64,000 nt of DNA from an uncultured Cycloclasticus sp. (GTDB lineage Bacteria > Pseudomonadota > Gammaproteobacteria > Methylococcales > Cycloclasticaceae). The stretch covers positions 19,009 through 83,008 of the forward strand of contig CAJXTU010000006.1 in assembly GCA_913060865.1 (NCBI GenBank), in the 5' to 3' direction. This document shows positions 16,520 through 46,105 of the stretch, piece after piece; position 1 is the stretch's first letter, and each line of letters begins with the position of its first letter. The position numbers and the translations under genes were made by a program. The notes beneath the pieces were generated by a model. The model ran no database searches, had not been told where the DNA came from, and saw nothing but the letters and a program-made list of their open reading frames with translations.

Positions 16520-16549
16520 AAAAAACACCCTCTATTTGATAGAGGGCGC
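16520..16549. terminator. Intrinsic terminator between convergent BASS gene and tupA
   Basis: CCCTCTAT-TTG-ATAGAGGG stem with a U-tract on the minus strand. Confidence 0.8.
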
Positions 16550-16573
16550 TTATCAAGCTTAAGCTAGCGTTAA

Positions 16574-17383
16574 TTACTGAGCGTCAGGGTAAAACAACTG
16601 CTGACCACCTTTGCGAAAGCTCGCGATGATGTCTTGACCTTCTTTGCTCGTTACGAATTTAATATACTTCATTGCTAGGTCGTACTTAACGCCTTTATGC
16701 TTTTCAGGGTTAACAGCCATCACATGGTAGGGGTTAAATAAAGCATCATCTCCTTCAAACAATACCTTCAACGACACTTTATCAGCAAAAGCAATTTGAG
16801 TACCTCGGTCTGTTAATGCATATGCTTGCTTTTCATTCGCTATATTTAGCACGGCACCCATGCCTTGGCCCACGTCTACATACCAATCTCCGACAGGTGT
16901 AACACCCCCTTTTTGCCATAAAAGCCTTTCTTTCTTATGCGTGCCTGAGTCATCACCCCTAGAAATAAAAGCCGCCTCTACATCGGCAATTCTTTGCAAT
17001 GCTTCTTCGACGGTCCCCGCCGTGGCTAATCTTGCTGGGTCATTGGCCGGCCCTATCAGCACAAAGTCATTATGCATCACAGCTTTACGATCAATAAAAT
17101 CACCAGACTTAACATATTTCAATTCTGCGCCTGGCGCATGAACAAACACCACATCAACATCACCTTGTGCACCCATTCTCAATGCTTTACCTGTACCGAC
17201 CGCAATCGCTTCAAGCTTGATACCGTACTGCGCTTCAAACGCAGGGTTTAACACCGCCAATAACCCTGAGTTTTCTGTACTGGTGGTGGTTGACATTCTA
17301 AGCACATCCGATGCTAAGCTGGCCGGTGCCACCATAGCTAATGTACTTAAACCTACAAATAACACTGCTTTAATTATTCTCAT
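16574..17383 (-). CDS. tupA: Tungstate ABC transporter periplasmic binding protein
   Basis: Signal peptide; STTTSTENSGLL (TTTS motif), VGTGKAL, HNDFVLIGP, FISRGDDSGTH, NPYHVMAVNP. Confidence 0.88.
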   Translation of the reverse strand: MRIIKAVLFVGLSTLAMVAPASLASDVLRMSTTTSTENSGLLAVLNPAFEAQYGIKLEAIAVGTGKALRMGAQGDVDVVFVHAPGAELKYVKSGDFIDRKAVMHNDFVLIGPANDPARLATAGTVEEALQRIADVEAAFISRGDDSGTHKKERLLWQKGGVTPVGDWYVDVGQGMGAVLNIANEKQAYALTDRGTQIAFADKVSLKVLFEGDDALFNPYHVMAVNPEKHKGVKYDLAMKYIKFVTSKEGQDIIASFRKGGQQLFYPDAQ

Positions 17384-17460: not shown

Positions 17461-18819
17461 CTAGAATGCCCATTGACCGCGAAGCTGCATAATGTCGGCT
17501 TCTTCATTTTCGTGCGCTCCACCGTCCACTTCTAATACTTTGATGTAGTTGGCAGAAAAACGTAAACCTGCTACTGGAAACCAATTTAGACCCAGTGTCA
17601 TATTGTCCATCTCACCACCGTCTATGCCAGAATCCACTAAATCAATCGTGCTATAGCGAAGCGCTAGTTCCCACGCACCCATACCACCGTTACCAAACGG
17701 GCTATTCGGTTTAACGGCTTTAAATTTTGCACCTTTGTGAGTATACGGGCGCGTATCATCCGTTAGGAACCAACCTGTTTGTGCGTACCAACCATCAAAT
17801 GTAGGGTCGCTTGTCGTCTCGCGGTCTAACTGAGTACGGATATATTCCATTTGGCCAGAAAACCTATCTTGAACAACCGCTAATTCAGCCCCTAATGATA
17901 GGTAGCTATCAACATCCATTAGTTTGCCCGTATCCACAAAATTCACGCCTGATATGTTGGTTTCCGGCTGCTGTTTGAATTGAACCTCACCACCACGGCT
18001 ACTACGGTAATTTGCCGCCAACCCTAAATGAACTAACGAGCCCTTTTCATTCACTGGCATCCAAGTAGCACGCCCCCCTAATCCCCAACCTTCATCATCT
18101 GAGCCACCATTGGTACTCGCTTTATCACCAAACACACCAAGTGCTGTTGTCCAGTGCTGACGGTTAATGCTGCCCATTACGCCAATATGTCTGCCTGCCG
18201 TAAAGGCATCAATAGACGCTCTTTCGGTAAATTGCGTATTATTATCACTCACTTGATCTTGCAGCATAAAAGGATCTCTAAAGTGCCCAGCCTTAACACT
18301 TAGGCCTGCAAAATCAAACCCGTTATAACCCACCCAAATATCGGTAATGCCTTTTCTTGTATCCCCTGTTCCGGCAAAATCATATTCAAACTTATAGAAC
18401 CAATCTTTATTTACCGTGCCTTTAATATAAAGCCTTGCACGGCGTACCTTCGTACCATCGCCCAACGTACTACCTGTTGCCGAATCATCTTCGCCATACC
18501 AAGCTGAATCTAACTGCATTCGACCGCCGATTTTTGTAGTGAAATCGCCATCACGTGATTTAACAGCCAAGCCACCTTTATCAACATTCACTTCAACGCT
18601 TGTTGCCTTATCAAGCTTTTCTTGAATCTCGGCTGCCTGCGCTACCGTTTTTTGTTCTGAAGCGTGCGCTTCGGCTAATACACGTTGATATTGCGCATCT
18701 GATATCGTGCCATTTTCATGCAGCAACATGAGCAGCGTTTTAAGCTCCGAACCGGCGTGTGCTGGTGATGATAATCCGGCACAAACGGCCATTGCTAACG
18801 CTAACTTATTAAATTTCAT
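17461..18819 (-). CDS. OprO/OprP-family oxyanion-selective outer-membrane porin
   Basis: Signal peptide from ATG 18819 (AAGGA RBS), KIGGRMQLD, RRARLYIKG, GAWELALRYS, C-terminal aromatic QWAF. Confidence 0.85.
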   Translation of the reverse strand: MKFNKLALAMAVCAGLSSPAHAGSELKTLLMLLHENGTISDAQYQRVLAEAHASEQKTVAQAAEIQEKLDKATSVEVNVDKGGLAVKSRDGDFTTKIGGRMQLDSAWYGEDDSATGSTLGDGTKVRRARLYIKGTVNKDWFYKFEYDFAGTGDTRKGITDIWVGYNGFDFAGLSVKAGHFRDPFMLQDQVSDNNTQFTERASIDAFTAGRHIGVMGSINRQHWTTALGVFGDKASTNGGSDDEGWGLGGRATWMPVNEKGSLVHLGLAANYRSSRGGEVQFKQQPETNISGVNFVDTGKLMDVDSYLSLGAELAVVQDRFSGQMEYIRTQLDRETTSDPTFDGWYAQTGWFLTDDTRPYTHKGAKFKAVKPNSPFGNGGMGAWELALRYSTIDLVDSGIDGGEMDNMTLGLNWFPVAGLRFSANYIKVLEVDGGAHENEEADIMQLRGQWAF

Positions 18820-18863
18820 TCGTTTTTCCTTATTATTGATTCCCAAAATACCTGTTGGCACAA

Positions 18864-18880
18864 AGCAAAACCAATGCCAA
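18864..18880 (-). promoter_or_regulatory. Sigma54 (-24/-12) promoter of the porin-tupA unit
   Basis: Minus strand TTGGCATTGGTTTTGCT = GG-N10-GC in TGGCA...TTGC context, about 45 bp upstream of the porin ATG. Confidence 0.85.
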
Positions 18881-18897: not shown

Positions 18898-18910
18898 CAA
18901 CTAACTGATT
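18898..18910 (-). promoter_or_regulatory. IHF binding site
   Basis: Minus strand AATCAG-TTAG-TTG matches WATCAR-N4-TTR, preceded by an A/T tract, lying between the sigma54 promoter and the activator sites. Confidence 0.7.
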
Positions 18911-18965: not shown

Positions 18966-19012
18966 TGTGACATTTTGTCTCAAGATACAAAGTCTTTTGA
19001 CAGAATGTCTCA
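18966..19012. promoter_or_regulatory. Tandem upstream activator palindromes
   Basis: TGTGACA-TTT-TGTCTCA (18966-18982) and TTTGACA-GAA-TGTCTCA (18996-19012), 30 bp apart. Confidence 0.7.
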
Positions 19013-19024
19013 TCACTATTTTTC

Positions 19025-19972
19025 ATGAACACTCCAAAAAACCCTCAGCTTCGCAAAGCTATTCGCGACCGCCACTCATTTTTTGGCAATAACCCCATTA
19101 TCGTCAAACTATTGGATGATATTCAGCGTGTCGCCCTTAAAAACACACCAATTTTATTAGACGGCGAAACAGGTACCGGCAAAAGCTTATTAGCTAGAAA
19201 AATTCATGATCTCAGCCAACGTAAAGGTCCCTTTGTATCCATTAACTGTGCAACCTTTAGTCAACATCTACTAGAAACTGAATTATTTGGCCACGCAAAA
19301 GGCGCTTTTACAGGTGCAAAGGACGCACGAAAGGGACTAGTCGCCACAGCGCAAAACGGCACCCTTTTTTTAGATGAAATTGGTGAGCTTCCACTAGACT
19401 CCCAACCAAAACTTTTGCATCTTTTAGAAGAAAAAACGATTCGTCCTGTTGGTTCAGACAAAGAATATAACACCTCCGTCCGTATCGTCGCTGCGACTAA
19501 CCAACGCCTAAAAGACCTCGTTAAACAAGGTTTATTCAGAGCAGACTTATATTATCGCTTAAGTGTCGTCCCCTTTACCGCCCCTCCCCTTCGTGAACGC
19601 CCAGATGATATTGAGGCACTCACCACAACCTTTGTCTCCCAACTTTGTGAGGAACACGAGCTATCAAAACCTAGCATATCAACCGAATCAATCAATGCAT
19701 TAAAAGCGCATGACTGGCCCGGCAATATTCGCGAGCTGCGCAACCATATTGAACGCTCGTTACTCTTAGGCACCCCGTTACATGAGAAGCTACCGATAAA
19801 TAAAAACCATTCGCCAGCTACAAGCACACGATGCCTAAAATCACTCGAGAAGGCACACATCCTTAAGGTTATCGATGAGAGTAATGGCAATAAATCTCAA
19901 GCCGCGAACAATTTGGGGATTTCTCGCCGCACACTGGATAGAAAGCTGAAACGTTGGCAGCAAGCCGCCTAA
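19025..19972 (+). CDS. Sigma54-dependent enhancer-binding activator lacking an N-terminal sensor domain
   Basis: Walker A GETGTGKS, GAFTGA loop, FLDEIGE, FRADLYYRL, WPGNIREL, Fis-type HTH; only about 20 aa precede the AAA+ domain. Confidence 0.92.
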   Translation: MNTPKNPQLRKAIRDRHSFFGNNPIIVKLLDDIQRVALKNTPILLDGETGTGKSLLARKIHDLSQRKGPFVSINCATFSQHLLETELFGHAKGAFTGAKDARKGLVATAQNGTLFLDEIGELPLDSQPKLLHLLEEKTIRPVGSDKEYNTSVRIVAATNQRLKDLVKQGLFRADLYYRLSVVPFTAPPLRERPDDIEALTTTFVSQLCEEHELSKPSISTESINALKAHDWPGNIRELRNHIERSLLLGTPLHEKLPINKNHSPATSTRCLKSLEKAHILKVIDESNGNKSQAANNLGISRRTLDRKLKRWQQAA

Positions 19973-21786: not shown

Positions 21787-22449
21787 ATGGAGACTAACTT
21801 TTGGCATGAACGTTGGGCAAAAAGTGAAATTGGTTTTCACTTAAATGAAGTTAACCCGTATCTTATAAAGTACTTTGGTGCGCTCAAAAAGAAATCAAAG
21901 ACGTCTGTTTTTGTTCCCCTATGCGGAAAAAGCAAAGACCTTATCTGGTTGGCAGAACAAGTAGAGCACGTTATTGGTATTGAGTTGAGCAAAAAGGCCA
22001 TTGATGATTTTTTCAGTGAAAACAAGCTCACACCCTCGATTATTCAGCATGAGCGATTCATTGAGTATCGCTATGCAAATTTAACCCTACTATGCGGTGA
22101 CTTATTCCAACTAACAGCTGCTGATTTAACGGGCCACCATCTCGTTTACGACCGCGCATCGCTGATTGCCTTTCCACCGGAGATGCGCTCGAGTTATGTC
22201 AAAAAATTAGATGAAATATTGCCCAATAAAGCGCAGCGACTACTGATCACTGTTGACTATCCGCAACATGAAATGAAGGGCCCTCCCTTTTCAGTACCGC
22301 CCGACGAAGTACATCAGTATTTCTCTTCACGATATGATATTCAATGTTTGCAGTCTGAGGATATTCTAGATGCATCAAAACGCTTCAAAGATAGAGGCGT
22401 AACGCGCATGCTTGAACACGTTTTTTTACTAACCGACAAAACGGCTTAG
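21787..22449 (+). CDS. tpm: Thiopurine S-methyltransferase family protein
   Basis: FWHERW, IGFH, VFVPLCGKSKDL, YDRASLIA, GPPFSV. Confidence 0.9.
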   Translation: METNFWHERWAKSEIGFHLNEVNPYLIKYFGALKKKSKTSVFVPLCGKSKDLIWLAEQVEHVIGIELSKKAIDDFFSENKLTPSIIQHERFIEYRYANLTLLCGDLFQLTAADLTGHHLVYDRASLIAFPPEMRSSYVKKLDEILPNKAQRLLITVDYPQHEMKGPPFSVPPDEVHQYFSSRYDIQCLQSEDILDASKRFKDRGVTRMLEHVFLLTDKTA

Positions 22450-43972: not shown

Positions 43973-46105
43973 ATGTCATCTGTAGCAGAAGTCAGTAATA
44001 ACGTAAAAATAACTAAAACTATTGTGCTGAATACAGGCACTGTTGCACAAAAGCGAGAAGAAATTCGCGATTACTTGCATAAAACCTTCCAATTGGAAGA
44101 GCAACTATACGAAGCGCTGACATCTGATGAAGCCTTCTATCTAAGACCTGAATCACTTCGCCACCCACTGGTTTTTTATTACGGTCATACCGCTACTTTT
44201 TTCATTAACAAATTAACGCTCGCCTCTCTCATTCATCAACGCGTTAACCCACGTTTTGAATCCATCTTCGCTGTTGGTGTTGATGAAATGTCCTGGGATG
44301 ATTTAAATGAATCGAATTATGACTGGCCCAGTATTGCTGAGGTCCGTGAATACCGGCAAACCGTGCTGACGCTTATTGACTCACTCATAAGCACGCTACC
44401 GCTCGACCTACCCATCACTTGGGAAAGCCCTTTTTGGCCTATCCTCATGGGTATTGAACATCAACGCATTCATATTGAAACCTCCTCAGCTATCATTCGT
44501 CAAATGCCCCTTGAGTACTTGCAACCGCATAGTACTTGGACTGTTTGCCCTCACGTTGGAGAGTCACCTACTAATCAGTTACTCGATGTGGAAAGTGGCC
44601 GTATTAAACTGGGCAAAGATAAAAACCACAAAACCTACGGCTGGGATAACGAATACGGCGAGAAAGTTGCCGACATTCAAGAGTTTTCCGCCAGTAAGTA
44701 CCTTGTCTCAAATGGTGAGTTTCTCAGCTTCATAAAAGACAATGGCTATCATCAAAAAAGATTTTGGACCGAAGAGGGCTGGAACTGGGTGCAATATAAA
44801 AAACCCGAGCACCCGCTTTTTTGGATACAAAAGGACGATCGCTACCTTCTTCGTACCTTATTAGAAGAACAAGAAATGCCTTGGAATTGGCCAGCAGAAG
44901 TGAATTACTTAGAGGCTAAAGCTTTTTGTAACTGGCTAAGCGATAAAAAAGGAACCACTATTCGCTTACCCACCGAAGAGCAATGGCAGCACTTACATGA
45001 ATTGCATGATATTCCAGATCAACCCGAATGGGAGCAAGCACCGGGTAATATTAATCTTGAACACTGGGCATCTGCCTGCCCTGTTGATCACTTTGCCTTT
45101 GGCGAATTTCACGATTTAATCGGCAATGCTTGGCAATGGACAGAAACACCCATCAGCGGTTTCGATGGCTTTGAAGTCCACCCTTTATATGATGACTTCT
45201 CAACACCCACCTTCGACACACAACACAACTTAATTAAAGGCGGCTGTTGGATTTCCACTGGAAACGAAGCCACCAAACACGCGCGCTATGCCTTTAGACG
45301 TCATTTTTATCAACACGCGGGTTTCCGCTATGTAGAATCAAATCAACCTATGGAAAAACCAACCGCTATGTACGAAACCGATACCGCTGTCTCACAATAT
45401 TGTCACTTTCACTACGGCCCTAGTTATTTTGATGTGGAAGATCTCTCTGCTCATTGTGTTCGGCTATGCATGGAAAAACTCGACGCTAAACCGACCGCTC
45501 GCGCACTCGATTTAGGCTGCGCTGTTGGTCGCGCTTCTTTTGAACTAGCACAACACTTTGACACCGTAACAGGCATTGACTTCTCTGCACGTTTTATTCG
45601 TATCGCCCATCAAATGCAGCAAAAAGGCAACATTCATTACGAATTGATTGAAGAAGGCGAGATCGTGTCCTACCACGAACAAACACTTGAGCAGATTGGC
45701 CTAAGCAAAAACCAAGAAAATATTGAGTTTTTTCAAGGCGATGCTACTAATCTAAAACCCCAGTTCACGAATTACGACCTAGTGTTAGCTATTAACCTCA
45801 TTGATCGATTACGCACACCCGCTGTTTTCCTCGATGATATTCGCCATAGAATTAACGTTGGCGGCGTATTAGCCATTGCTTCACCGTACACTTGGCTGGA
45901 AGAGTTCACCCCTAAAGAAAACTGGCTAGGCGGCATCCGTAAAGATGGTGAACCGTATTCCACCTTAGAAGGCTTAAAGGATCATTTAGGCGTACATTTC
46001 AAATTGATTAACGAGCCTACGGATGTCCCTTTCGTTATCCGTGATACTAAACGGAAGTTTCAGCACAGCTTTAGTCAACTAAGTATTTGGCAGCGCATAT
46101 CGTAA
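43973..46105 (+). CDS. ovoA: 5-histidylcysteine sulfoxide synthase with C-terminal methyltransferase (ovothiol biosynthesis)
   Basis: LRHPLVFYYGH, HQRIHIE (HX3HXE iron motif), FGE-sulfatase domain ending RRHFYQHAGFR, YETD..VSQY, SAM motif LDLGCAVGR. Confidence 0.93.
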   Translation: MSSVAEVSNNVKITKTIVLNTGTVAQKREEIRDYLHKTFQLEEQLYEALTSDEAFYLRPESLRHPLVFYYGHTATFFINKLTLASLIHQRVNPRFESIFAVGVDEMSWDDLNESNYDWPSIAEVREYRQTVLTLIDSLISTLPLDLPITWESPFWPILMGIEHQRIHIETSSAIIRQMPLEYLQPHSTWTVCPHVGESPTNQLLDVESGRIKLGKDKNHKTYGWDNEYGEKVADIQEFSASKYLVSNGEFLSFIKDNGYHQKRFWTEEGWNWVQYKKPEHPLFWIQKDDRYLLRTLLEEQEMPWNWPAEVNYLEAKAFCNWLSDKKGTTIRLPTEEQWQHLHELHDIPDQPEWEQAPGNINLEHWASACPVDHFAFGEFHDLIGNAWQWTETPISGFDGFEVHPLYDDFSTPTFDTQHNLIKGGCWISTGNEATKHARYAFRRHFYQHAGFRYVESNQPMEKPTAMYETDTAVSQYCHFHYGPSYFDVEDLSAHCVRLCMEKLDAKPTARALDLGCAVGRASFELAQHFDTVTGIDFSARFIRIAHQMQQKGNIHYELIEEGEIVSYHEQTLEQIGLSKNQENIEFFQGDATNLKPQFTNYDLVLAINLIDRLRTPAVFLDDIRHRINVGGVLAIASPYTWLEEFTPKENWLGGIRKDGEPYSTLEGLKDHLGVHFKLINEPTDVPFVIRDTKRKFQHSFSQLSIWQRIS

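What the first reader, a model, noticed from the sequence alone, without database searches (positions are those of the whole stretch)
19025..19972. Sensor-less enhancer-binding protein as the probable controller of tungstate uptake
The 315 aa activator has an intact GAFTGA AAA+ domain and HTH but no receiver, GAF or PAS domain. Such activators (PspF, HrpR/S) are controlled in trans by inhibitor proteins (established). Known Mo/W uptake regulators (ModE, TunR, TaoR) are not sigma54 activators. A trans-regulated sigma54 switch for a W/Mo uptake unit would therefore be a different regulatory logic, with an unidentified partner, perhaps the missing transporter components (inference).
Basis: partly seen in the sequence, partly recalled or inferred. 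Interest (0 to 1): 0.65.

Follow-up and report, generated by a model that had tools for sequence, protein, structure and literature searches.

The report
Receiver-less sigma-54 activator of porin-tupA
This Cycloclasticus gene encodes a sigma-54 activator that has lost the phosphorylation-receiver domain its relatives carry. It still sits next to the conserved binding sites and promoter of a porin plus tungstate-binding-protein operon, so it is a trimmed variant of a sigma-54 tungstate-uptake circuit already seen in Vibrio and Shewanella, not a new regulatory logic.

Summary
ORF 19025-19972 (+) encodes a 315-aa sigma-54 enhancer-binding protein (EBP) with an intact AAA+ core, GAFTGA loop and HTH_8, and only about 20 disordered residues before the AAA+ domain.

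It very probably activates the divergent porin-tupA operon:
- The only strict -24/-12 match in the 64 kb lies upstream of the porin.
- Two GACA-N3-TGTC sites lie about 120-150 bp further upstream.
- Both elements are conserved in the four other Cycloclasticus loci aligned, and recur next to homologous EBPs in other genera.

The "new regulatory logic" claim does not hold. The nearest receiver-bearing homologues are two-component response regulators paired with Cache histidine kinases, divergent from tupABC-mobA-moeA. The equivalent Vibrio operons are published as RpoN-dependent. Sister-group orthologues keep a degenerate receiver. All Cycloclasticus copies lack it and evolve under strong purifying selection (dN/dS 0.06-0.12).

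The "missing" transporter is not missing. A published Cycloclasticus MAG lists moeA-tupC-tupB-tupA elsewhere, plus a tungsten aldehyde oxidoreductase.

Most likely the activator is constitutively competent, and its output is set by its own level and by sigma-54 availability. A trans-acting partner is not excluded, but nothing found here supports one. I rate it a new variant of a known kind, of moderate-to-low interest.

The parts
19025..19972 (+). Receiver-less sigma-54 enhancer-binding protein, 315 aa. AAA+ sigma-54 interaction domain residues 21-183 (nt 19085-19573), AAA lid 190-248, HTH_8 272-311 (nt 19838-19957).
   Evidence: dN/dS 0.06-0.12 against Cycloclasticus orthologues.
18968..18982 (.). 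Candidate activator binding site UAS1, TGACATTTTGTCTCA (core palindrome GACA-TTT-TGTC), centred about 122 bp upstream of the predicted transcription start.
   Evidence: the only GACAWWWTGTC in the 64 kb; 0.09 expected. Nearly invariant in the four other Cycloclasticus loci aligned. Among the 95 loci held when the scan was run, the same core occurs only in 13 loci of this family.
18998..19012 (.). Candidate binding site UAS2, TGACAGAATGTCTCA. It lies 30 bp (about 3 helical turns) from UAS1 and ends 13 nt before the activator's own start codon, so autoregulation is possible (inference).
   Evidence: Partly conserved. Paired sites 30-32 bp apart also occur in L002 and L085.
18898..18910 (-). Possible IHF site AATCAGTTAGTTG between the binding sites and the promoter. 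Weak evidence.
   Evidence: 17 such matches in the window, so position is the only argument. The TGATT core is invariant in alignment A1.
18864..18879 (-). Sigma-54 promoter TGGCATTGGTTTTGCT (GG at -24, GC at -12). Predicted transcription start near 18853.
   Evidence: the only strict match in 64 kb (0.26 expected). Conserved in every Cycloclasticus locus and present in the equivalent intergenic region of L081-L084 and L087-L092. A variant, TGGCGCACGTTTTGCT, occurs in L085.
17461..18819 (-). OprO/OprP-family anion porin, first gene of the target operon. The real start is the ATG at 18819 (MKFNKLA...), not the mechanical GTG at 18861.
   Evidence: Pfam Porin_O_P E 2e-66. Start read. 52% identical to the porin paired with tupA in Methylophaga.
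16574..17383 (-). TupA-family periplasmic tungstate-binding protein (signal peptide, TTTS motif), second gene of the operon. There is no tupB or tupC beside it.
   Evidence: PDB 3LR1 Geobacter TupA E 2.6e-81, 3MUQ VP1501 E 1.7e-67, 5MY5 D. alaskensis TupA. 49% identical to Ferrimonas TupA of a tupABC operon. NCBIfam TupA 244.8 bits, below the 400-bit cut-off.
16523..16551 (-). Strong intrinsic terminator ending the porin-tupA transcript (13-bp stem followed by a T run).

Best explanation
The gene encodes the Cycloclasticus orthologue of a gammaproteobacterial sigma-54 response regulator. That regulator is normally partnered with a Cache-domain histidine kinase and activates tungstate uptake (tupABC), molybdopterin-cofactor genes and formate dehydrogenase operons.

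In this lineage the kinase is gone and the receiver domain was first degraded and then deleted. What remains is the output module: AAA+ ATPase plus HTH. It binds two GACA-N3-TGTC palindromes about 120-150 bp upstream of a -24/-12 promoter and drives a two-gene operon for an OprO/P-type anion porin and a periplasmic TupA paralogue (architecture shown; binding and activation inferred).

The full-length relatives carry the helical "RRLLRRENLMLRRE" linker typical of the DctD/NtrC1 class. In that class the unphosphorylated receiver represses assembly of the ATPase, and deleting it gives a constitutive activator. The short protein is therefore most likely constitutively competent (inference). On that reading, expression is set by the activator's own level and by sigma-54 holoenzyme availability, not by a metal-sensing partner. 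Autoregulation is likely because UAS2 abuts the activator's start codon.

The porin-TupA pair probably acts as an outer-membrane and periplasmic capture front end. It would feed the TupBC permease encoded elsewhere and supply tungsten to an AOR-type enzyme in seawater, where tungstate is always scarce (inference).
For: Target and cis elements:
- Domain content and intact catalytic motifs.
- A single, correctly placed sigma-54 promoter and paired palindromes.
- Both are conserved across Cycloclasticus loci and recur next to homologous EBPs in L081, L084, L085 and L087.
- Among the 95 loci held at that point, the GACAWWWTGTC core occurs only in 13 family loci, and in none of more than 70 loci of unrelated EBPs.

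Descent from a two-component regulator:
- Identity falls in tiers: short forms at 64-98%; 424-444-aa forms at 51-62% with no Pfam receiver hit; true receiver forms at about 49%.
- The extra N-terminus of the 424-444-aa forms is a divergent receiver (profile against PDB receivers E 2.5e-8, NtrC1 1.7e-6; sub-threshold Response_reg in 7 of 7). It has lost the phospho-Asp and/or the conserved Lys.
- Contexts: receiver forms with a Cache kinase sit divergent from tupABC-mobA-moeA beside fdhD/FDH. Degenerate-receiver forms have no kinase and sit divergent from an outer-membrane channel plus tupA, beside proS. Short forms show identical synteny in Cycloclasticus.

Selection and expression:
- Purifying selection, dN/dS 0.06-0.12.
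- Metatranscriptome contigs cover porin-tupA of a related Cycloclasticus. In two runs the adjacent uvrA and panS-like genes are mostly uncovered, so the operon is "on" in situ.

Genus background and literature:
- tupABC-moeA, an AOR cluster and rpoN are listed elsewhere in a Cycloclasticus MAG.
- RpoN dependence of the Vibrio equivalents (PMC3439928; PMC9817140).
- Own knowledge: receiver-deleted DctD is constitutively active. Such a variant was used to map the Salmonella sigma-54 regulon (PMC3844500, title seen).
Against: - No experiment or strand-specific RNA data exist for this organism. No RNA run holds the window's own operon.
- Constitutive activity is inferred from the linker class of relatives and was not tested. 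In enteric NtrC-type activators, removing the receiver inactivates the protein instead.
- A conserved N-terminal RKxIRD motif is shared by the short and degenerate-receiver forms but absent from the true response regulators. It could be a docking site for an unknown partner.
- In Methylophaga the same porin-tupA pair sits beside a PBP_like ligand-binding regulator. Metal-responsive control of this module therefore exists elsewhere.
- I could not test whether the activator also controls the distant tupABC-moeA operon.
Confidence: 0.55

Rival explanations
1. One reading: the receiver-less activator is held in check by a trans-acting protein, as PspA holds PspF or HrpV holds HrpS. The partner might be a transporter component and would report tungstate or molybdate status.
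For: - There is precedent for domain-less EBPs controlled in trans (established knowledge).
- The conserved N-terminal RKxIRD peptide is specific to the short and degenerate-receiver clades.
- The same porin-tupA module is next to a ligand-binding (PBP_like) regulator in Methylophaga, so metal-responsive control of this module is plausible.
Against: - No candidate partner gene is conserved next to the activator in Cycloclasticus (neighbours are uvrA, a PanS-like transporter and proS) or in the sister groups.
- The two operon products are an outer-membrane and a periplasmic protein and cannot touch a cytoplasmic activator.
- It is not a PspF equivalog (251.7 bits against a 443.55-bit cut-off).
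- The tupBC genes are encoded with their own tupA elsewhere.
Confidence: 0.22
2. The activator still receives a signal directly, without a separate domain. Examples would be a small ligand binding the AAA+ domain (as c-di-GMP binds FleQ) or cross-talk from an unlinked kinase or stand-alone receiver.
For: FleQ-type AAA+ domains are among the closest solved relatives, and ligand control through the AAA+ core is known for FleQ (own knowledge).
Against: - Reading the sequence by eye, the post-Walker-A "ARN" of FleQ is "ARK" here and no LFRS-like motif precedes the AAA+ domain. This was not formally tested.
- Similarity to FleQ is no higher than to NtrC4, ZraR or NtrC1.
- No receiver is left to accept a phosphoryl group.
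Confidence: 0.1
3. The unit has nothing to do with tungsten. It would be a phosphate or other oxyanion porin plus a PstS-like binding protein under a nutrient-stress sigma-54 circuit.
For: The porin belongs to the OprO/OprP phosphate-selective family. PBP_like_2 also contains PstS-type proteins. The NCBIfam TupA score is below its cut-off.
Against: - The best solved matches are TupA proteins, with the TTTS, SRGDxSGTH and LTDRGT motifs conserved (binding residues from PMC5517513).
- The protein is 49% identical to a TupA inside a tupABC-mobA-moeA operon.
- It is assigned KEGG K05772 in a published MAG.
- The Methylophaga module sits beside moaC, moaD and moaE.
Confidence: 0.05
4. The short gene is a recent truncation, a pseudogene or a gene-calling artefact.
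For: Relatives outside the genus are 110-130 residues longer at the N-terminus.
Against: - The length is conserved at 311-316 aa across clusters down to 64% identity and in three isolate species.
- dN/dS is 0.06-0.12 with synonymous sites saturated.
- All catalytic motifs are invariant.
- The upstream DNA is a conserved promoter and operator region, not a decayed coding sequence.
Confidence: 0.02

Closest known systems
Sigma-54 two-component system next to tupABC and formate dehydrogenase genes in Vibrionaceae, Shewanellaceae, Ferrimonas and Inmirania. The response regulator plus Cache histidine kinase includes the protein annotated SO4718 in S. oneidensis. Its targets include V. cholerae VC1523-27 and V. 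parahaemolyticus VP1501.
   Same: - Homologous AAA+ and HTH modules (about 49% identity).
- The same GACA-TTT-TGTC operator core and a -24/-12 promoter in the divergent intergenic region.
- The target operon begins with, or contains, a TupA-family gene.
- RpoN dependence of the Vibrio operons is published.
   Different: - No receiver domain and no adjacent histidine kinase.
- The target is porin plus tupA only, without tupBC, mobA or moeA.
- No FDH genes are nearby.
- I did not verify that SO4718 or the V. cholerae regulator (VC1522 by gene order; own inference) are one-to-one orthologues of the proteins I examined.
PspF and HrpR/HrpS, the classical enhancer-binding proteins without an N-terminal regulatory domain.
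   Same: The architecture is AAA+ plus HTH only. The protein is divergently transcribed from its target, and binding sites overlapping its own promoter region suggest autoregulation, as in PspF.
   Different: - Not a PspF equivalog, and PspF ranks below NtrC4, ZraR, FleQ and NtrC1 among solved relatives.
- No pspA- or hrpV-like gene is nearby.
- The short form arose by a traceable loss of a receiver domain inside a response-regulator family.
Receiver-deleted DctD and NtrC1 variants, the laboratory constitutive activators.
   Same: The protein starts a few residues before the AAA+ core, like the engineered truncations. Its full-length relatives carry the coiled-coil-type linker of the negatively regulated class.
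   Different: This is a natural, genus-wide truncation kept under purifying selection, and it retains its DNA-binding domain. Constitutive activity is inferred, not measured.
ModE, TunR and TaoR, the characterised Mo/W-responsive regulators (TOBE or PBP-like ligand domains fused to an HTH).
   Same: They control Mo/W uptake or W-enzyme genes. PBP_like regulator genes sit in related loci: with HTH_17 in L084 (confirmed) and L087 (precomputed), and with a weak LysR-type HTH next to the orthologous porin-tupA pair in Methylophaga.
   Different: They are sigma-70-type one-component regulators that bind the oxyanion themselves. The protein here has no ligand-binding domain and works through sigma-54.

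Membership tests
Bacterial enhancer-binding proteins (sigma-54 activators, PF00158) | AAA+ core with Walker A, Walker B, arginine finger and sensor II | tested here: met
   Pfam E 4.6e-63. GETGTGKS, D117-E118, R172 and N234-R236-E237 are invariant in alignment A2.
Bacterial enhancer-binding proteins (sigma-54 activators, PF00158) | GAFTGA loop that contacts sigma-54 | tested here: met
   GAFTGA at residues 93-98. Conserved in A2 (G93, F95, T96, G97 and A98 invariant; A94 at 90% or more).
Bacterial enhancer-binding proteins (sigma-54 activators, PF00158) | Cognate -24/-12 promoter with upstream binding sites at a nearby target | tested here: met
Bacterial enhancer-binding proteins (sigma-54 activators, PF00158) | ATP-dependent open-complex formation with sigma-54 holoenzyme | not testable with these tools
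   Needs biochemistry or genetics. rpoN is listed in a Cycloclasticus MAG.
NtrC-family two-component response regulators (the tup/FDH-linked clade) | N-terminal receiver domain with a phospho-acceptor Asp | tested here: not met
   No PF00072 hit and only 20 residues precede the AAA+ domain. Residues 1-14 are disordered. Alignment A2 shows the deletion.
NtrC-family two-component response regulators (the tup/FDH-linked clade) | Cognate histidine kinase encoded alongside | tested here: not met
   The neighbours are the porin and proS. The same holds in the other Cycloclasticus loci.
NtrC-family two-component response regulators (the tup/FDH-linked clade) | Shared ancestry of the output module, the operator and the target | tested here: met
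   Identity tiers, contexts, and the shared operator and promoter.
PspF/HrpRS-type EBPs regulated in trans | No N-terminal regulatory domain | tested here: met
PspF/HrpRS-type EBPs regulated in trans | Sequence membership (PspF equivalog models) | tested here: not met
   TIGR02974 251.7 bits against a 443.55-bit cut-off; NF008622 209.5 against 529.
PspF/HrpRS-type EBPs regulated in trans | Dedicated anti-activator (PspA or HrpV type) that inhibits the ATPase | tested here: inconclusive
   None is encoded in the conserved neighbourhood. An unlinked partner cannot be excluded.
TupA tungstate-binding proteins (the target gene 16574-17383) | TTTS motif plus the conserved His, Arg, Thr and Asp of the oxyanion pocket | tested here: met
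   TTTS at residues 32-35, H82, R142, T148 and D192 by my own count. The motif blocks are identical to Geobacter TupA 3LR1. The residue list comes from PMC5517513.
TupA tungstate-binding proteins (the target gene 16574-17383) | Curated equivalog score | tested here: not met
   NF041772 244.8 bits against a 400-bit cut-off.
TupA tungstate-binding proteins (the target gene 16574-17383) | Encoded with tupB and tupC | tested here: not met
   Not in this operon (terminator at 16523-16551) and not among the larger ORFs of the window that I scanned with Pfam. A separate moeA-tupC-tupB-tupA cluster exists in a Cycloclasticus MAG.
TupA tungstate-binding proteins (the target gene 16574-17383) | High-affinity tungstate binding | not testable with these tools
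   Needs ITC or a similar assay.

The most novel reading that the evidence does not exclude
The output-only activator is nevertheless signal-responsive. An as-yet unknown mechanism would act through the clade-specific N-terminal RKxIRD peptide, or the AAA+ core would sense an oxyanion directly. The porin-TupA pair it drives would then be a dedicated outer-membrane and periplasmic tungstate scavenging front end, with an OprO/P-type channel selective for tungstate or molybdate. No such channel has been characterised as far as I know.
Probability: 0.15. Interest if true: 0.6.

Novelty: new variant of a known kind. Interest (0 to 1): 0.33.

Why it matters
- It gives a clean natural series for how a two-component sigma-54 circuit loses its input: true receiver plus kinase, then a kinase-less degenerate receiver, then no receiver. 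The promoter stays dependent on the activator throughout.
- It links scattered observations into one regulon family with a recognisable operator: RpoN-dependent "ABC transporter/molybdopterin" operons in Vibrio, an annotation in Shewanella, and orphan tupA genes in marine hydrocarbon degraders.
- It flags an anion porin that travels with TupA as a candidate outer-membrane route for tungstate. This is relevant to tungsten supply for AOR-type enzymes in oil-degrading Cycloclasticus.
- None of this overturns current understanding.

Tried and rejected
- RNA evidence for the window itself: no RNA run holds the operon. Laying four metatranscriptomes gave only short cross-matches from other organisms.
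- Isolate expression tables: supplements of PMC11099662 contain no tungstate, porin or sigma-54 entries. PMC6193391 is not held.
- Literature searches for a described sigma-54 tungstate regulator gave no dedicated study. Only an annotation line and regulon tables turned up.
- Finding the Cycloclasticus tupABC-moeA DNA, to test it for the operator:
  - The TupA homologue search returned only hits at 66% identity or more. Those I traced by contig or cluster were porin-linked orthologues; the Methylophaga hit I examined sits beside a PBP_like regulator; none was recognisable as the Cycloclasticus paralogue.
  - The metagenome scan for TGYGACATTTTGTCYC stopped at 120 rows. It was mostly chance matches and recovered only known-type loci (L117, L132, L144, L217).
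- Hypotheses rejected: a truncated pseudogene and a hidden N-terminal domain.
- The "70-aa ORF" upstream of the binding-protein gene in L085 is spurious, because it contains the binding sites and the promoter.
- A sigma-70 promoter for the activator gene could not be assigned convincingly (and reading by eye).
- Fold search was not run, because sequence-level PDB matches were already unambiguous.
Full report
**Observation.** ORF 19025-19972 (+) encodes 315 aa. Pfam finds Sigma54_activat (residues 21-183, E 4.6e-63), AAA_lid_14 (190-248) and HTH_8 (272-311), and nothing else. NCBIfam matches only the central and C-terminal parts of many sigma-54 activators, all below their cut-offs, including PspF (251.7 against 443.55 bits). 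Walker A, GAFTGA (93-98), Walker B, the arginine finger and sensor II are all present, and are invariant or nearly so in an alignment with 15 relatives. An in-frame stop at 18998-19000 precludes a longer reading frame. An AlphaFold2 model (mean pLDDT 84.5) shows residues 1-14 disordered and no extra domain.

**Surroundings.** Two genes are transcribed divergently on the minus strand.
- The first is an OprO/OprP-family porin (Pfam E 2e-66). Its real start is the ATG at 18819.
- The second is a TupA-family binding protein at 16574-17383.
  - Its best solved relatives are Geobacter TupA 3LR1 (E 2.6e-81), V. parahaemolyticus VP1501 3MUQ and D. alaskensis TupA 5MY5.
  - It keeps the TTTS, SRGDxSGTH and LTDRGT blocks that form the oxyanion pocket described in PMC5517513.
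  - Its NCBIfam TupA score is below the cut-off.
- A strong intrinsic terminator follows tupA at 16523-16551. The unit is therefore a two-gene operon with no tupB or tupC.
- The rest of the window is housekeeping. I found no Mo/W gene, kinase or PspA-like gene.
- The organism is a Cycloclasticus. The closest genome loci are Cycloclasticus MAGs. The isolates C. pugetii, C. zancles 78-ME and strain P1 carry 316-aa orthologues in a cluster whose representative is 88% identical to the window protein, with the same synteny uvrA / panS-like / tupA / porin | EBP / proS.

**Cis elements.** The strict sigma-54 consensus TGGCAY-N5-TTGCW occurs once in the 64 kb (0.26 expected). The match, TGGCATTGGTTTTGCT at 18864-18879 on the minus strand, lies about 34 nt upstream of the porin start codon once the predicted transcription start near 18853 is allowed for.
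- Two copies of TGACA-N4-GTCTCA lie at 18968-18982 and 18998-19012, 30 bp apart. Their centres are about 122 and 152 bp upstream of the predicted start.
- The palindromic core GACAWWWTGTC is unique in the window (0.09 expected).
- In an alignment of five Cycloclasticus intergenic regions, whose mean column identity is 66%, the -24/-12 element and the first site are invariant or nearly so.
- A possible IHF site lies between them. The motif is common in the window, so this is weak evidence.
- The second site ends 13 nt before the activator's start codon. Occupancy should therefore interfere with the activator's own expression (inference).

**Family and evolution.** Homologues fall into three tiers.
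- Tier 1: 311-316-aa proteins at 64-98% identity, all without an N-terminal domain.
- Tier 2: 424-444-aa proteins at 51-62% identity whose extra N-terminus gets no Pfam hit.
- Tier 3: 433-500-aa proteins at about 49% identity with a bona fide receiver domain. These come from Ferrimonas, Shewanella, Photobacterium, Vibrio, Inmirania and others.

A profile of the tier-2 N-termini matches receiver domains in the PDB (8SVZ E 2.5e-8, NtrC1 1ZY2 1.7e-6). All seven members give sub-threshold Response_reg hits. In the alignment, the phospho-acceptor Asp is Ser, Ala or Thr and the conserved Lys is Ser or Pro in one subgroup. The other subgroup keeps the Asp but has lost the Lys.

The contexts follow the same order.
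- Tier-3 genes are followed by a Cache_3-Cache_2/HisKA/HATPase kinase. They are divergent from tupA-tupB-tupC-mobA-(mobB)-moeA, with fdhD, moaA and a formate dehydrogenase operon alongside (Ferrimonas L084, Photobacterium L087, Inmirania L093). In Azospirillum the pair sits next to fdhE and fdnG.
- Tier-2 genes have no kinase. They are divergent from an outer-membrane channel plus tupA, next to proS (L081, L085).
- Tier-1 genes are the Cycloclasticus arrangement.

Every one of these intergenic regions carries a -24/-12 promoter (L085 variant). Most also carry the strict GACAWWWTGTC core; the Ferrimonas tupA intergenic has a near-variant and none was found in Inmirania. Of the 95 loci held when that scan was run, the core occurs only in 13 family loci, and in none of the more than 70 loci of unrelated EBPs. 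In Ferrimonas the core, and in Inmirania a sigma-54 promoter, also precede the FDH operon.

The short form is under strong purifying selection. dN/dS is 0.06-0.12 where synonymous sites are not saturated. I read this as stepwise loss of phosphorylation input in one orthologous regulator lineage. It is neither a recent truncation nor an independent invention.

**What is already known.** I found no study dedicated to this regulator, but the logic is documented.
[quoted passage not shown] So do the neighbouring FDH genes (PMC3439928).
- In V. parahaemolyticus, VP1501 falls in a delta-rpoN mutant (log2 -1.45) and has a predicted -24/-12 site (PMC9817140). VP1501 is the protein of PDB 3MUQ, which PMC5517513 classes as a TupA.

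TaoR is an HTH_17 plus PBP-like protein (PMC11980592). But a sigma-54 switch on a tungstate uptake unit is not a new logic.

**The "missing" transporter.** Dataset S3 of PMC12510462 annotates a Cycloclasticus MAG with the same locus: proS, the EBP (mis-called NifA), the porin, a K05772 TupA and a BASS transporter. About 240 genes away it lists moeA, tupC (K06857), tupB (K05773) and a second tupA (K05772). It also lists an aldehyde:ferredoxin oxidoreductase cluster and rpoN. The window's tupA is thus a second, porin-linked paralogue, and the genus has both a use for tungsten and a complete uptake system.

In Methylophaga the orthologous porin-tupA pair (52% and 68% identity) lies beside moaC, moaD and moaE. 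There it is divergent from a PBP_like ligand-binding regulator and has no sigma-54 promoter. The two-gene module is conserved and its regulator has been exchanged.

**Expression.** No RNA data exist for the window's own sequence. For a related Cycloclasticus MAG (L002, EBP 86% identical), four metatranscriptomes contain contigs over tupA, the porin and the EBP. In two rRNA-depleted seawater runs the adjacent uvrA and panS-like genes are largely uncovered, which argues against DNA carry-over. Several contigs end 10-35 nt inside the predicted transcript start. This shows the operon is transcribed in situ. It does not show how it is regulated.

**Mechanism.** What is shown:
- an intact activator;
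- a conserved promoter and operator architecture;
- a conserved target;
- descent from a two-component regulator.

What is inferred: because full-length relatives have the helical RRLLRRENLMLRRE-type linker of the DctD/NtrC1 class, the receiver was probably an intramolecular repressor. Deleting it, after loss of the kinase, would then leave a constitutively competent activator. Output would depend on activator abundance (likely negative autoregulation through the second binding site) and on sigma-54 holoenzyme availability. Constitutive expression of a high-affinity capture module is plausible where tungstate is always scarce relative to molybdate (own knowledge of seawater chemistry).

Rivals are a trans-acting partner or direct ligand control. 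Both remain possible. They are favoured only by the clade-specific RKxIRD N-terminal peptide and by analogy, and no candidate partner gene is conserved nearby.

**Verdict.** The finding is a new variant (receiver-less, re-targeted) of a known but under-studied sigma-54 tungstate/FDH regulatory family, of moderate-to-low interest.

Noticed in passing
L096:4429-7804 (Methylophaga sp. 42_25_T18): The orthologous Porin_O_P plus TupA pair (52% and 68% identical to the window's) is divergent from a 355-aa PBP_like (PF12727) regulator and lies beside moaC, moaD and moaE, with no sigma-54 promoter. The porin-tupA pair is a conserved module whose regulator has been swapped between lineages.
   Followed up: partly
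L081:6362-7702: In the sister group with a degenerate receiver, the outer-membrane partner of tupA is an Alginate_exp-type channel instead of an OprO/P porin. A separate Porin_O_P gene lies about 3 kb away.
   Followed up: no
window 19004-19027: A T-run (19019-19023) separates an out-of-frame ATG (19005) from the start codon. A 98%-identical metagenome protein (P0001, 322 aa) reads through from that upstream ATG, so the run length varies between strains. Neither version adds a domain.
   Followed up: partly
L084:13196-13206 and L093:11504-11519: The same operator core (Ferrimonas) and a sigma-54 promoter (Inmirania) precede the DUF3305-DUF3306-Fer4 formate dehydrogenase operon. This suggests the ancestral regulon joins tungstate uptake, cofactor synthesis and FDH. 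The partner kinase has Cache domains, so its signal could be formate or another carboxylate rather than tungstate.
   Followed up: partly
L084:11328-12233 and L087:13055-13966: TaoR/TunR-like regulators (HTH_17 plus PBP_like) are encoded next to fdhD in the same loci as the sigma-54 two-component system. Two kinds of Mo/W-related regulator therefore coexist there.
   Followed up: partly
L003:1697-1712 and L004:1683-1698: A second strict sigma-54 consensus match lies between the MFS transporter gene and uvrA in two Cycloclasticus MAGs. It is absent from the window.
   Followed up: no
window 43973-46105: A 710-aa DinB_2 plus FGE-sulfatase plus methyltransferase fusion, the architecture of OvoA-type (ovothiol) sulfoxide synthases.
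   Followed up: no
window 21787-22449: A thiopurine/selenium-type S-methyltransferase (TPMT, E 1.7e-75) directly follows proS. The arrangement is conserved in several other Cycloclasticus loci (L002, L089-L091).
   Followed up: no
Dataset S3 of PMC12510462 (gene c_000000000001_7): The orthologue of this activator is labelled "Nif-specific regulatory protein" (K02584; score 371 against a threshold of 536) in a published Cycloclasticus MAG table. This is a mis-annotation worth correcting.
   Followed up: yes
L085:3335-3547: A called 70-aa gene between the activator and the binding-protein gene is spurious. It contains both binding sites and the -24/-12 promoter.
   Followed up: yes
L095:6001-6969 and loci L005-L079: Many other AAA+ plus HTH-only sigma-54 activators of 300-333 aa exist, especially in Bryobacterales and Terriglobia, in unrelated contexts. 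Sensor-less EBPs are common in metagenomes.
   Followed up: partly
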